Assembly (NCBI GenBank): GCA_951406725.2
Contig: OX597819.1
Location: 32,488,001 to 32,552,000, forward strand
DNA: 64,000 bases
DNA from: Octopus vulgaris
Taxonomy: Eukaryota
Direction of reading: 5' to 3'
The position numbers were made by a program, and so were the translations under genes. The notes under the pieces were generated by a model that saw only the letters and a program-made list of their open reading frames with translations, was not told the DNA's origin and ran no database searches. Numbering within the stretch: position 1 is the first letter of the stretch; each line of letters starts with the position of its first letter. Positions 12,307 to 64,000 of this stretch are shown here, one piece after another.

Positions 12307-12382
12307 CCCAGACTGATCAGTTTCTACCTCTTTTTAGCAAAACATACAGAATATGTTTGCCCAGGCAAGGTTCGTCAGTGGG
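12307..12382 (-). ncRNA. Type-I hammerhead ribozyme in PLE pLTR
   Basis: ccca-CUGACGA-accu...gcaaacaua/uauguuuugc...aggu-a-GAAA-CUGAUCAG-UC-uggg; palindromic stem III; GUC site, cut predicted between 12311 and 12310. Confidence 0.85.
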
Positions 12383-12499
12383 TAGCCTTCTAAATCCTAG
12401 ATGCATAGAGCGTTAGAGCACGTGTAGCTCTAACGGTTTGTAAATCTGAACTTTCCAAACCTCCGCGCAGACACAAAACATACCTGGCGGCCGAGTTTT

Positions 12500-13545
12500 A
12501 GATTGTTTAGAATATAAGCTCCTATGAGCATACATAACTCAGCCCCGTCCTATGCTCCCATCGGTACATCGAAAAGAGAATCCTCACTCTTCTTAACCCA
12601 GGTGGAATCCTCGTAAAAATGAAGTGATTTCCTCGCATGTATGATAATATCAATTTCCGAGTTATCGATGTTGATAATGATTTTAGGAGTAAAGTGCTAG
12701 ATATTGACGGGTAAAAGTCAATAATATAAAACTGCGTAAAATTGCAGTTATGCTTATAGCTAATCCCTTTAAACCAATCTATAACTGACTTACTATTCTT
12801 CCAAATTCTCAAATCTAATTCACTATCTAACTTAGTTAAAATACGGTCCAAAATATATTTGCTGATATTACCTATTTCAGTTTTAGCCAGATTAATCAAT
12901 CTACATTTGGGGTTTCTATTAAAATTGGCTTTATGGTCTATCAGGGTAATAAAAGCGGGTCGAGAGGGGAAAGATATTCTATCCTATCGCTAATCTTAAG
13001 ATTGTTAGCTATTCTTCTTGCCTCCAAATTCACCACTTTGTATATATTTGTGTTGTCTTTTTGTATGTATCTTTGATGCTATTCGAAATTAGACGCTTGT
13101 AATTGTCCTTATCAAATGCATATAAGTTTCTTGTCTTATCAGAATTAATGATCTTATTCGAGTTGTTAATTTCCTTAATTTTTTCTTTCATATTTCTCTG
13201 TAATTGGTTGCTATATTTACGGAATCTAATTTTTCTACTAAGTTCGAAAAGGTCTTTCTCGAAGGCTTCTAATTCCGGAATAGGTGGTGGGTTCCTGGAA
13301 GATTTAAGTCCGTATTTGTTTCCGTTGGTGTTCTGTTTAGTATCAAAGAAGAAGGCTTTCCATCTCAATCTACGAACAAACTCTTCTGTTTTCTCTTTAA
13401 CACTTTTGAGATATTGTTTTTGTGTAGGGATAGATATATTTTTCTGAGAAAAATCCAGTGGGTTGAGTTCCAGCTTTTTCAGCTGTTTCTTCTTCCTACT
13501 TGTGTAGAGCCGGACAAACTTTTCTAAGAAAGGAGCGGGTTGCAC
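12500..13545 (-). pseudogene. Frameshifted Penelope-like reverse transcriptase (N-terminal half)
   Basis: PLE RT motifs split over several frames; the catalytic DD motif and endonuclease are missing. Confidence 0.75.
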
Positions 13546-13674
13546 CGCATGAATTAAAATTCTTTTAGATATTTTAACATCTTCTTTTCTCCATTTTTAA
13601 CAAATCTGTTGAGTTTTATGGGATTTCTTTCCATAAATTCACAACACACCATATACAATTATGTATATATATAT

Positions 13675-59332: not shown

Positions 59333-61499
59333 TATATACATATATATCAGTAGGTATGTATATATATGTATATATGCATATACTTATATATTATATATAT
59401 ATATATGTATATATACATATATATATATGTACATATATATGTATGTGTGTATAAATATATAAGTATATATGTATATATGTATGTATGTATATGTATATAT
59501 GTGTATGTGTGTTGTATAAATATATATATTTATACACACATGTATTGTATATTATATTATACTATATTTTATACTATGTTATATAATTTTATATACAGCT
59601 ATAATGTATATAATATCATATATATATATAGCTATGATACACACACACACACAGATATATATATATATATATATATATATATATATATATATATATATAT
59701 ATACAATACATACATTACCACTGAACGGCCAGAAAGGATAGCTGCCTCTCTCATCTGTATGGATGTATATGTATTTTGCTTGTTGAGAGAATAATTTTCA
59801 GTTAAACTGAAAATTATTCTCTCCACAGACGAAAATATCGAACGATGCCCTCTAAGATAGCACCAATTAGAAAACAATCTATGAAAGCCGATATCCTTTC
59901 TTTGTTGTCTATAGATAGGAATCTGTTCACACTAGAAAGAACAGACAGGTCCATTCTTCATAGTGTGAACTTATAGAACGAAGCTGGCCAGACAGTGCCA
60001 AACATTTCGGTGAGTCACTCGATTGGAGGGATCAATTGATTTGTACAGGAATTTATGAGTGCATAATGGTAACTCTGGCTATTTGTCTGTCTGTCTGTCT
60101 GTCTGTCTGTTTGTTTGATATATGAATGCGCCTTTAAGTATTTATACATGTATGTGTGTGTGTATGTATGTATGTAAGTATGCGTATGTGTATGGAATTG
60201 TGTGTGTATGTATTTATGTATGCATAAATGCATGTATTTATATATTTAATGTATGCCTGGATGTTCGTATATTTGAAAGCATATATATATATATATATAT
60301 ATATATATATATATATATATATATAGGTATATATATATGTATATATATATGTATATACATATATGTATATATATATATATATATGTACATATATATATGT
60401 ATATATATATATATATATATATATATATCTGTGTGTGTGTGTATGTATGTATCTATATATTCATGTATGTATTACTGCAAGTACACATGTGTATGCATGT
60501 CAACAAAATTAGTATGTATGTAGACACATACGCACGCACACACACACTTACATATATATAAATATCTCTGTCTCTCTTTTTATTCATGTGCGTGTGTATG
60601 TGTGCGTGTGTGTGTGTGTGCGTGTGTGTATGTCTTTGTGCAAATTTGTGTAATCGTCTGTGTGTGAGGAAAGAGGTTATAGCGGGAGAGAGCGGGCAAT
60701 TGATAGAAGTAGAGAAGGAGAGAGAGAAGGAAAGAGGGAGAAGGAGAGAGGGAGGGAGAGAGAGGGAGAGAGAGAGAGATACTAAGTGAAGGTAGAGAAA
60801 GCAACATCGATTTATTTTGAGTTTGTACATAATGTCTATTTCTGTGTTGTAGACATTACAATAAAGACACACGGCGGCGATAGCTGCTTTGAGGTGTTCC
60901 TTCTCCAACAATAACTGATTCTTCTTATGCATTTAGTGTATATATATGTATATGTATTTGTATATATATATATATATATGTGCGTTGTTGTTGTTGTAAT
61001 TTCAAAAGCATTCCCTCATCACTGGTCAAGCATATGTATGATTCATGACATTCTGTGATCCTTCCTTCTTGCACATGGTGTACTTCTGGTTATGTCATCC
61101 AATATATCGTGTGTTCATTTTGGGAGAGAGAGAGATATTGTTCATGGGAGAGAGTTTTCTGGATGGTATGATCAATCCGTCACCATGTAACTCTTGTGTA
61201 TATTAGGCCGAGTCAATTTTGTTGCATACATCTGGACCCGGTCTTAGATAAGGATAACTGCTTCCCTTCCTCTCCCCGAGGATTTAGAAAAAGAGCAACG
61301 AGGGTTGCCCTTCTATTTCACACTAAGTTCACCCCTTTAAAAAATGGTCTTAGTCTTTTGTGGAAATTGCATTCAAATCTAAGATGATTTATTAGAATAT
61401 GACGCATTGTAGATTGAGCAGAGCGAAATTGAGACTTTCTAAGACGAAAATAGATCTGCACAGGCTTCAAACGTATCAATAAATAGCAAAACCGACAGC

Positions 61500-61880
61500 A
61501 TACAAAGGGAACCCCTACACGAACGATCGAGAGCGGGGGCCTGAACAAAGGAGGGTAAAGGGTAAAAACGGTAAAGACCCCTAGATTGCACCTAGAAAGT
61601 TCCCCTCCGAGGCACAAGTCCGGGCAAGGTTGTTTATGAAAGACCACCAGTCGTCTATGCATACCAGCCTCCTCTCTCCACGCCATCGATGTTATCCTAG
61701 AGAAAGGCAAAGGCCGATACAGCTAGGCACCAGTGATGTTGCAACTCATTTCTACAGCTGAGTGAACTGGAGTAACGTGAAATCAAATGTCTTGCTCAAG
61801 AATACAAGATATAGCCCAGTCTGGGAGTCGAACTTACTACTTCAAGATTATAAGCCCGATACTCTAACCACTGAGACCAC
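61500..61880 (-). mobile_element. tRNA-SINE family C with long tail
   Basis: tttctacagctgagtgaactggag...cttgctcaag...gtcgaac...ctctaaccactgag. Confidence 0.7.
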
Positions 61881-63344
61881 AGAATCAGAAATAACAACTA
61901 AATATCGTTTAACTTACATCCTACCGGCATAAAAAATGTTCTCTTATAATAGATAATGTAATTCTAGGTTTTCTATTTCCGAAAAAAAAAATAATAAAAG
62001 CGAACCAAATCAAAGAAAAAGATTAACACATCTATAATACTTTAGTTATAGGTCTCCACATTCTAGGCAAATCTCGAAATTAAACAAACAAAAAAAAAAC
62101 ACCAGTGAATTACAGGTATCATTTCCACACAATCTCTTTTAGCATCATATCTATTATGTTAAGTAAGGTAGGTGGGATTAAAAGTCCTGGTCAGAAATAA
62201 AAAGACAAACCTTCTTCGGCAAATAGGAGCTCACGAACCCATGGACTCAGTGCTGTAACAGGTTAATAAGTCAGCCATTTTGAATTCTTTGATAGCAAAA
62301 TTATAGGCTCGTAATTAGTGTGCAATTAAGAATGTGTAGGGAATAAATGTGTAAATTAGCGACATGTAATTAAAGAATGTGTAGGGAAAACTACGTATTG
62401 TGTCATATCTAATTATGGATATATAATTAGAAACATAGAAACATTGATAGTTAAGAACATGTATAATTTCATATGTGTAATTAGGCAATTATAATTACAG
62501 ATGTCTAATGAGGGATAAGTATAATTAGAATGTGTAATTAGGACTTCCGAAGCAATAGGTATCTGATAGGCAAAAGGTTATATAATATATTTTCTCGTCC
62601 CTCTCCCATCTAAATCTTGATTATGGGGTTAGGTTCTTTGAACCTTAAAATATCATACTTGTTATCATTAGTCTAAAAACAATATTTCTTTAGATCGTAC
62701 AATAAATAAAGAATCATTTACAAGAAAGGCTGTGAATATTTTGTGAGGGATACGAGAACAGCTGAAGCATACCTGGTCATACCTCTGGAGCAGCGTACAA
62801 GTGTCACGTTCGGGTATTCAGGTATAACATAATTGAATTCATTGAAACAGAGGAACTTCATAACTCTTCCTTTTGCTGTTTCTTTCATCTTTTTATGTTT
62901 TTCTTAACAATGGTCGTTATCATGATCATAACCACATGATTATGATTATAATTACGATAGTCGACGATGTCCACGTCATCGTAGCTGTTTGGCAAAAGTA
63001 ATTTATTAAATTCAATATCTGCTAAAAATGCGTTATATATGCAAATTGGTTTATTTGCTTTGCTTACGCCCTAAACATTCTGTCTCTGAAGATGTTGCAT
63101 ATAAAGGCAAGGACTCTATGTCCTGTAGTAAAGAATAGAATTAAACAAAACGCTGTTAACACACCAGTAATTTAACAATGTCTATGCGAATTATCAGGGA
63201 ATACCCTCTGGATAGCTAAGGTGGACAATACCAACCCAGACTACAGCTACGAATATCAATATATTAGTTATTTAGTATGTAAAGTAAATAATTTCCAATT
63301 TAACGTCGAATTTCTTATTTAATGCATAAAATTCTGTGTGGAAC

Positions 63345-64000
63345 TAGATTAACTCTATACAATTGTTTCATCGTTAATAGATTATGTAGTTTTACTTACA
63401 TAAGTATTTGTCCTGCTCGTTTACATTCTTGGCGTGTTAAATTAATTCTTGAGAACAATTCTTTAGTGGTGGATTCCCTTTGTGGATCTATATCTAGCGT
63501 TAGAGTGACCGCATGGTGGACTCGCTCTTATTGTTTTGTATTAATAATTTTTTACTGTATTCCAGTATTTTATACGCTAGGCCACTTGGGGTTTTGAATT
63601 GATGTTATTAATTAATATTCAATTTTTTCACCATTATTGTGACTTTAACTATAAATTAATATGTTCTCAAACCGGCAGTAAATTACTTGGGCAGTATTTA
63701 CATCCGGTGATTTAACGCGCCAGAATGAGGGCATTTGAATGTAACTGCGAATATAATCGGCTGTACCGTTCGTCTCTTTTCAACTTCGTGTGGATTTTGC
63801 CGCTCGGTTCGACAAATTATATTTCTGATGTACACTACTGACGATTCGAAAATACTTATGTAAGTAAAACTACATAATCTATTAACGATGAAACAATTGT
63901 ATAGAGTTAATCTATTTTTTCGTTATTTTTCATTTGTCCTGCTCGTTTACATTCTTGGCGTGTTAAATTAATTCTTGAGAACAATTCTTTAGTGGTGGAT
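63345..64000 (+). mobile_element. ORF-less pLTR unit (~527-bp period) preceded by an inverted piece
   Basis: 63408-63475 repeats from 63934; 63345-63408 is the reverse complement of ~63851-63914; family motif acgctaggccact. Confidence 0.8.
63833..63906 (+). ncRNA. Type-I hammerhead ribozyme
   Basis: cacua-CUGACGA-uucg..uuaugua/uacauaa..cgau-GAAA-CAAUUG-UA-uagag; first stem II pair is a U-U mismatch. Confidence 0.75.

What the first reader, a model, noticed from the sequence alone, without database searches (positions are those of the whole stretch)
12307..63906. Stem III palindromes differ between copies but stay palindromic: possible dimer self-recognition code
Seen: the segment between GAAA and UH is CUGAUCAG (12307), CCUAGG (38839), CCAUGA (40591, one change from CCAUGG), CAAUUG (63833), CAUAUG (56385 and 58468), UAGCGCUA (17807), CG (13771), UG (20498) and CCGAGUCGG (9221). 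The four pLTRs sharing the accagtggcctagc motif have four different palindromes. Established: minimal hammerheads with a palindromic stem III cleave as dimers. Inference: compensatory change implies selection for dimeric cleavage, and only identical palindromes pair fully, so each subfamily may cleave only with its own tandem copy.
Basis: partly seen in the sequence, partly recalled or inferred. Interest (0 to 1): 0.72.

Follow-up and report, generated by a model that had tools for sequence, protein, structure and literature searches.

The report
Drifting palindromes in paired self-cutting RNAs
Jumping repeats in this animal genome carry predicted self-cutting RNAs with a short self-complementary stem that varies between families but stays self-complementary, likely because each RNA cuts only when paired with an identical neighbour copy, a known design; different families reuse the same stems, so a selected self-recognition code is unlikely.

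Summary
All ten hammerhead-like sites and stem III segments are in the window; two (CCAUGA, UG) are decayed copies. Palindromy is far above chance: across 24 other families, 35 of 41 pairs that can form only in a dimer are Watson-Crick (25% expected). Two sister subfamilies differ by a true double change (CCUAGG/CCAUGG). This matches the published dimer mechanism.

The four 'pLTRs' are ORF-less 421-515-nt retrozyme-like units, not ends of coding elements. The code idea is half right. Homodimers are predicted 2-18 kcal/mol more stable than most heterodimers, and stem I is swapped too. Selection for a code is not supported: unrelated families share palindromes more often than chance (8 of 36 pairs, 2.3-2.7 expected), CCAUGG re-arose inside the CCUAGG lineage, a non-palindromic CCGUUCGG subfamily amplified, and stem III changes no faster than intramolecular stem II.

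Best reading: purifying selection for self-pairing plus compensatory drift, with family insulation as a by-product. Cleavage is untested. Lünse 2017 could not be read. The scan noted a related stem III case in another genome.

The parts
12089..12495 (-). ORF-less retrozyme-like insertion, lineage D (unit 429-439 nt in close relatives), 3' end in (TA)n
   Evidence: blastn 95-96% to L002/L005/L011; unit lengths; terminal redundancy and tandems in relatives
12307..12382 (-). type I hammerhead; stem I CCCA/UGGG, stem III CUGAUCAG (12313-12320), predicted cut after C at 12311
12496..13547 (-). 5' half of a Hydra-clade Penelope-like ORF (RWK, DKT motifs; frameshifted) joined with no gap to the retrozyme unit; likely template-switch chimera
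   Evidence: blastn 86% to L093, junction 12495/12496; tblastn; clade motifs from PMC8557442 section 11
13771..13805 (-). minimal hammerhead, GAAA-CG-UU, in a separate ~260-nt repeat (13651-13911)
20498..20533 (-). decayed copy of the CG minimal hammerhead family (UG)
9221..9268 (-). type I hammerhead, odd palindrome CCGAGUCGG, old family (77-87% between window copy and relatives)
17807..17854 (+). decayed type I hammerhead (GACA), family stem III UAGCGCUA
38562..38983 (-). ORF-less retrozyme-like insertion, lineage C; hammerhead 38839-38911, stem I CGGUCA/UGACCG, stem III CCUAGG (38847-38852)
40325..40770 (+). ORF-less retrozyme-like insertion, lineage A (right end approximate); hammerhead 40591-40663, stem III CCAUGA (decayed CCAUGG), core U3 shared with many lineage A copies
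56129..57990 (-). decayed Penelope-like element with ORF remnants (56921-57977) and a 3' hammerhead at 56385-56470, stem III CAUAUG; a true pLTR case
   Evidence: tblastn; homologous layout in L128
58468..58557 (+). type I hammerhead of a family distinct from the 56385 one, same stem III CAUAUG; stem I damaged in this copy
63406..64000 (+). ORF-less unit of a distant sister lineage (GCTAGGCCACTTGG at 63576-63589), runs off the window; hammerhead 63833-63906, stem III CAAUUG

Best explanation
These are type I hammerhead motifs in ORF-less retrozyme-like repeats and Hydra-clade Penelope-like elements, whose stem III is likely held self-complementary by selection for cutting as a swapped dimer of two identical tandem copies, while the particular palindrome likely drifts. 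Steps: (1) shown: the family-level stem III is palindromic, including positions a monomer hairpin cannot pair. (2) Predicted by folding: in a head-to-tail transcript two copies pair III-a with III-b and exchange stem I strands, giving two active cores. (3) Inferred from published retrozymes: the double cut frees one unit, which is circularised and reverse-transcribed past one unit length by a Hydra-clade RT into (TA)n. The 1.0-1.3-unit inserts and the window chimera fit this. (4) Inferred: both partners are copies of one template, so any viable master sequence must pair with itself. Only the property 'self-complementary' is selected, and the sequence moves by wobble pairs, central insertions or deletions and tolerated central mismatches (CCAAUUGG-CCAUUGG-CCAUGG-CCUAGG/UCUAGG-CCAUGG; CCGUCGG-CCGUUCGG-CUGAUCAG-CUGAUAUCAG). 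(5) Preference for self is then a predicted by-product of divergence in stems I and III, not a code under diversifying selection.
For: 35 of 41 dimer-only pairs are Watson-Crick in 24 families, with all four pair types used, p 6e-16 (7 groups dropped by a palindrome-blind rule). Sister subfamilies with the same stem I 3' strand: central UA in 40, AU in 33, other in 7, AA or UU in 0 of 80 matches (hand count). Monomer stem III is predicted at -1.8 to +4.5 kcal/mol and the homoduplex at -6.2 to -16.0. In natural tandems the dimer fold is 6.3 (L027) and 8.0-12.6 kcal/mol (L133, L135, L198) below two monomers, and within 0.2 of the free MFE in L133 and L135. Reuse: 8 of 36 pairs of 6-mer families are identical against 2.3-2.7 expected, p 0.004-0.011. 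CCAUGG copies nest inside CCUAGG with starred support, and A plus C2b as one clade is rejected, p-AU 7e-52. Fewest changes on that tree: stem III 11, stem I 15, stem II 22. Pairwise, stem III diverges less than stems I and II in all 8 bins. Units are 421-515 nt with the longest ATG ORF 29-97 aa in 16 measured rows. Palindromic helix III and dimer cleavage are published (PMC4209133).
Against: No cleavage or RNA data exist for these elements. 64 of 80 examined loci hold a single hammerhead and only 4 a direct tandem, one of them with a truncated upstream core, so trans pairing could matter more than assumed. Between lineages stem III p-distance exceeds that of the downstream flank (0.30 vs 0.22, 0.40 vs 0.27, 0.46 vs 0.33), though ungapped scoring inflates it and stems I and II exceed it more. 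Counting stems I and III together, only 1 of 78 pairs of 13 representatives looks fully cross-compatible (read by eye), which a code would also give. In L027 the dimer fold lies 4 kcal/mol above the free MFE and the central III-a:III-b pair had probability 0.000. The change counts include private decay and two mis-parsed rows. Sharing among 'unrelated' families may be deep ancestry. The B-A2-A-C order rests on unstarred branches (82-88) and a midpoint root.
Confidence: 0.75

Rival explanations
1. Selected self-recognition address: stems III and I together diversify so that each subfamily is cut and circularised only with its own copies and is not cut or poisoned in trans by other families' transcripts.
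For: Heteroduplexes are predicted 2.1-17.8 kcal/mol weaker than the homoduplex mean, except CCUAGG/UCUAGG at 0. Lineages that share stem III (A, C2b) differ in stem I (cross pairing -1.0 to 0), and those sharing stem I (C2a/C2b, D1/D5/D6, A/A2/B) differ in stem III. Most genomic copies are solo. Stem III outruns the flank between lineages.
Against: Palindromes are over-shared, not avoided. CCAUGG re-arose. CUGAUCAG persists across four stem I variants. The intramolecular stem II changes as fast or faster. Most heteroduplexes still beat two monomer hairpins, e.g. CCAUGG x CCUAGG by 9.8 kcal/mol. 19 of 24 families begin with C, so the outer pair is shared. Tethered cis partners need no code (inference).
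Confidence: 0.12
2. Many of these ribozymes cut as monomers (the 7-10-nt segments form 3-4 bp hairpins) and central palindromy is a relic or an optional enhancement.
For: CCAAUUGG, CCGUUCGG and CUGAUAUCAG monomer hairpins are predicted at -0.9 to -1.8 kcal/mol. CCGUUCGG amplified without central pairing. Invertebrate retrozymes tested so far cleave efficiently as monomers (PMC7229834 abstract and passages). One family has a 14-nt imperfect segment.
Against: Dimer-only positions covary across families. The 2-6-nt segments cannot form a stable monomer helix. Minimal PLE hammerheads showed no monomer activity in vitro (PMC4209133).
Confidence: 0.1
3. Palindromes are made by DNA-level template switching or repair of quasi-palindromes, without RNA function.
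For: Length variants arise by central duplications (CCAAUAUUGG, CUGAUAUCAG).
Against: Inserted copies decay without repair: 0 of 24 non-CCAUGG variants in lineage A and 1 of 33 variants in lineage C2 (UCUAGA) are new perfect palindromes (hand counts). The palindrome sits exactly between GAAA and UH in dozens of unrelated families.
Confidence: 0.03

Closest known systems
Minimal type I hammerheads of Penelope-like elements that cleave as dimers (Cervera and de la Pena 2014, PMC4209133, parts 1-2 of 4 read; Lünse et al. 2017, not held, seen only as a title and through reviews PMC6765202 and PMC6466107, passages)
   Same: Type I topology, short palindromic 15.2-16.2 segment, many sequence-diverse families with covariation in one genome, extra base next to stem II, predicted swapped dimer.
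   Different: Here stem III is mostly 6-10 nt with long stem II loops. A subfamily tree of the palindrome, reuse statistics and heterodimer energies were not seen in the texts read. No cleavage data here.
Metazoan non-LTR retrozymes (Cervera and de la Pena 2020, PMC7229834, abstract and passages; Li et al. bioRxiv 10.64898/2026.07.22.740005, part 1 of 5 and passages)
   Same: ORF-less, low-GC units with one type I hammerhead, found as monomers and tandems, linked to PLEs.
   Different: Units are 421-515 nt, against expressed RNAs of about 170-400 nt and repeats of 150-450 bp in the paper. They insert in (TA)n and are mostly solo or inverted. One is fused to a Hydra-clade ORF. Circular RNA is not shown here.
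Hydra clade of C-terminal EN+ PLEs (Craig et al. 2021, PMC8557442, abstract, passages, section 11)
   Same: RWK and DKT motifs, short single ORF (727 aa), (TA)n targets, hammerhead in terminal repeats.
   Different: The young autonomous family here carries the odd palindrome CUCAGAG (93 of the first 100 of 3957 matches), unlike any in the retrozyme clade. Clade placement rests on motifs, not on an RT tree.
Double-hammerhead of newt satellite 2 and ASBVd (Forster et al. 1988; title only, described in PMC4209133 and PMC6466107)
   Same: Weak stem III with palindromic loop, activity as a dimer in multimeric RNA, proposed protection of the monomer circle.
   Different: Different hosts and element class; many coexisting palindromes in one genome here.

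Membership tests
Type I hammerhead (dimer type) | CUGANGA, GAAA and UH core with stems I and II | tested here: met
   some window copies decayed, many lineage A copies have U3
Type I hammerhead (dimer type) | short palindromic stem III segment covarying at dimer-only positions | tested here: met
   35 of 41 pairs
Type I hammerhead (dimer type) | dimer fold favoured in tandem RNA | tested here: inconclusive
   favoured over two monomers by 6-13 kcal/mol in 7 of 7 computed tandem pairs at 4 loci, but not the free MFE in L027; prediction only
Type I hammerhead (dimer type) | self-cleavage, dimer-dependent | not testable with these tools
   needs in vitro assay
Type I hammerhead (dimer type) | match to an Rfam hammerhead model | tested here: inconclusive
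   none among the 150 of 166 rows shown, which were simple-repeat matches to miRNA models and one snoRNA model
Non-LTR retrozyme | short non-coding unit with one type I hammerhead | tested here: met
   421-515 nt, longest ATG ORF 29-97 aa in 16 rows; no adjoining Hydra ORF except the window chimera
Non-LTR retrozyme | head-to-tail repeats or more-than-unit inserts | tested here: met
   direct tandem at 4 of 80 loci; terminal redundancy
Non-LTR retrozyme | expressed linear and circular unit-length RNA | not testable with these tools
   needs raw RNA reads or northern blot
   tblastn with one Hydra protein found no adjoining ORF; 3-5.6 kb spaced pairs had no such ORF between them. A more distant parent is not excluded. 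Met for the 56385 element
Hydra-clade PLE (ORF at 12496-13547 and the young 727-aa family) | RWK and DKT motifs, ORF under 3 kb, (TA)n target, hammerhead in terminal repeat | tested here: met
Hydra-clade PLE (ORF at 12496-13547 and the young 727-aa family) | placement in an RT phylogeny | not tested
   no reference set aligned; Pfam gave no hit on four window fragments
Selected self/non-self code | family-unique, mutually avoiding sequences | tested here: not met
   over-sharing and homoplasy
Selected self/non-self code | faster change at the interface than in a non-interface helix | tested here: not met
   stem III slower than stem II, although faster than the flank at larger distances

The most novel reading that the evidence does not exclude
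Dozens of coexisting retroelement families use a two-part RNA address, stem III plus the swapped stem I, that is selected so that each family is cut and circularised only with its own kind, including in trans between solo transcripts. Reuse of one half is tolerated only when the other half differs, as seen for CCAUGG in lineages A and C2b. This would be an RNA analogue of specificity codes in paralogous protein pairs.
Probability: 0.12. Interest if true: 0.62.

Novelty: new member of a known kind. Interest (0 to 1): 0.27.

Why it matters
The core fact, a palindromic stem III for dimer cleavage, is known. What this genome adds is a natural series of a ribozyme homodimer interface changing step by step, with ready-made matched pairs: same stem I and different stem III (CCUAGG vs CCAUGG; CUGAUCAG vs CCGUUCGG), and same stem III and different stem I (lineages A vs C2b). 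These make homo- versus hetero-dimer cleavage directly testable and could supply orthogonal dimer-gated ribozymes. The fused Hydra ORF and retrozyme copy is one genomic hint of which RT moves these units. If the address proved selected, it would show RNA-level kin discrimination among competing transposons.

Tried and rejected
Rfam scan: only simple-repeat matches in the 150 of 166 rows shown. Pfam on four ORF fragments: 0 families. Naiad identity for the ORF was considered and dropped; the motifs fit Hydra. Same-strand pairs 3-8 kb apart were checked as possible ORF-flanking pLTRs: no Hydra ORF lay between them, and L212 and L213 look like local duplications. CCGAUCGG as a stepping-stone subfamily was rejected, since it sits beside CCGUUCGG in one insertion (L219). 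Age test: perfect palindromes in 17 of 20 younger and 14 of 20 older copies, too weak to use. Expression: no RNA holder listed. Contigs of four coded runs were laid; three are only guessed to be RNA, and one contig joins unit end to start, which a DNA tandem also gives; not used as evidence. The first trees with truncated or inverted copies were noisy and were replaced (L224 left out, no core found). Scripts 69 and 80 stopped on parse errors; 69 gave only L027. Lünse et al. 2017 could not be fetched, so its text and supplements may already contain palindrome covariation or heterodimer tests. Literature searches for heterodimer or self-recognition in retrozyme hammerheads listed nothing relevant, in a library that lacks most subscription papers. 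No supplements were opened. R-scape was not available.
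Full report
Observation. All ten sites are in the window with the stem III segments quoted. Seven are perfect even palindromes, one is odd, and two are decayed: CCAUGA from CCAUGG (76 of the first 100 of 138 lineage matches) and UG from CG (13 of 16 hits in that group). Relatives confirm the family states CCGAGUCGG, UAGCGCUA, CAUAUG and CAAUUG and CUGAUCAG. Counts taken from the listed rows are by hand. The window lies in a 2.8-Gb genome.

What the elements are. A pattern anchored downstream of the ribozyme gave 1692 matches against 13 for its control. 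Copies show no ORF. They are units of 421-515 nt (16 measured rows, longest ATG ORF 29-97 aa), inserted as about 1.0-1.3 units with terminal redundancy or as head-to-tail tandems, ending in (TA)n. Of 80 loci picked without regard to stem III, 64 held one hammerhead, 9 an inverted pair only, 4 a direct tandem and 3 none. A 727-aa protein of a young Penelope-like family with the Hydra motifs RWK and DKT found no ORF adjoining these units. The one exception is in the window, where the 5' half of such an ORF (13547-12496) abuts a unit (12495-12089) with no gap and no remainder on the other side; I read this as a template switch during reverse transcription (inference). So the four 'pLTRs' are retrozyme-like units. 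The 56385 site is a true PLE 3' end.

Is palindromy more than chance? A structure scan blind to this segment gave 72 perfect palindromes among 116 exact-core hits at score 13 or more, against 0 of 1 in reversed sequence. At family level, outside the main clade, 24 homology groups passed a palindrome-blind consistency rule and 7 were dropped. Of the 24, 17 are perfect palindromes, and 35 of 41 pairs that a monomer hairpin cannot form are Watson-Crick (25% expected, p 6e-16), using AU 12, UA 11, CG 6 and GC 6. In lineage C2, copies sharing the same stem I 3' strand carry central UA (40) or AU (33), other 7, never AA or UU, of 80. Compensation is therefore real.

Mechanism. In a dimer, III-a pairs with III-b and each core uses the 5' stem I strand of one copy and the 3' strand of the other (geometry reasoned from the type I layout and the dimer described in PMC4209133). 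Predicted monomer stem III is -1.8 to +4.5 kcal/mol and the homoduplex -6.2 to -16.0. In natural tandems the swapped fold beats two monomer folds by 6.3 (L027) and 8.0-12.6 kcal/mol (three other families). It matches the free MFE in L133 and L135 but not in L027, where the central pair had probability 0.000. Double cleavage would free one unit; circularisation and more-than-unit reverse transcription are inferred from PMC4209133 and PMC7229834. Cleavage and expression were not shown here.

Is it a code? For: heteroduplexes are predicted 2.1-17.8 kcal/mol weaker than the homoduplex mean, apart from CCUAGG/UCUAGG at 0. Counting stems I and III together, only 1 of 78 pairs among 13 representatives looks fully compatible (by eye). 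Stem III also differs more than the downstream flank between lineages (0.40 vs 0.27 in the 0.25-0.30 bin). Against: (a) among 9 six-mer families, 8 of 36 pairs are identical, against 2.3-2.7 expected (p 0.004-0.011); CAUAUG occurs in four groups. Deep ancestry could explain this, but that too means conservation. (b) On a tree of 32 copies built without the ribozyme, CCAUGG copies nest within the CCUAGG lineage with starred support, and joining them to lineage A is rejected (p-AU 7e-52). (c) CUGAUCAG persists while stem I covaries (CCCA/UGGG, CCCG/CGGG, CUCG/CGAG, CUCG/CGGG). (d) CCGUUCGG, with two central U-U mismatches in a homodimer, is 24 of 100 listed matches in lineage D. (e) Fewest changes are 11 for stem III, 15 for stem I and 22 for the intramolecular stem II (with private decay and two mis-parsed rows included), and stem III is below stems I and II in all 8 distance bins for 40 copies. 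(f) Most heteroduplexes still beat two monomer hairpins (CCAUGG x CCUAGG by 9.8 kcal/mol), and neighbours on the tree stay partly compatible (+2.1 to +2.6 for one-base indels). The tree suggests a ladder CCAAUUGG, CCAUUGG, CCAUGG, CCUAGG, CCAUGG, with only 82-88 support on the early steps and a midpoint root. One tandem appears to hold CCAUUGG and CCAUGG 418 nt apart (from the listing only).

Comparison with what is known. [quoted passage not shown] Reviews PMC6765202 and PMC6466107 (passages) say the same, citing Lünse et al. 2017, which I could not read. PMC7229834 (abstract, passages) and bioRxiv 10.64898/2026.07.22.740005 (part 1 of 5, passages) define the ORF-less units. PMC8557442 (abstract, passages, section 11) defines Hydra. 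PMC10085705 (passages) held nothing relevant. Searches listed no paper on heterodimer discrimination, within a partial library; no supplements were read.

Verdict. These are new members of known kinds. Purifying selection for self-pairing with compensatory drift is the best explanation (0.75); a selected address remains possible (0.12) and is now cheap to test with matched natural pairs. Interest 0.27.

Noticed in passing
window 12496-13547 joined to 12089-12495 (-): 5' half of a Hydra-clade ORF fused without a gap to a retrozyme unit; likely RT template switch, a hint that Hydra RT mobilises these units. Seen once.
   Followed up: partly
window 12144, 18578, 56240 region; L093 3489 and 6886: A CC(A)CTGGTA motif lies 40-75 nt from the 3' end in the retrozyme clade, the young Hydra family and the 56385 PLE; possible cis signal for the RT. 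Distances read by eye.
   Followed up: no
lineage A copies, e.g. window 40595, L133, L154, L120: U instead of C at core position 3 (UUGAUGA) is common in the lineage (6 of 9), suggesting an inherited U3-G8 core rather than decay.
   Followed up: partly
L002 1216, L045 1879, L236 3729: Many members of the CG minimal family read CUGUNGA (U at position 6) rather than CUGANGA, while the window copies have the canonical core.
   Followed up: no
   Followed up: partly
G000; L091, L093: A very young autonomous Hydra-like family: many intact 727-aa ORFs and 3957 exact hammerhead matches with a 2-bp stem II and odd palindrome CUCAGAG.
   Followed up: partly
window 28555-30632 and 26350-27827 (-): Long RT-containing ORF remnants of another non-LTR retrotransposon type; type not determined.
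   Followed up: no
L020, L110, L167 and 5 more loci: Hammerhead family with a 14-nt stem III segment (CAGUUCUAGUCCUG) that is only partly self-complementary; candidate monomer-active control.
   Followed up: no
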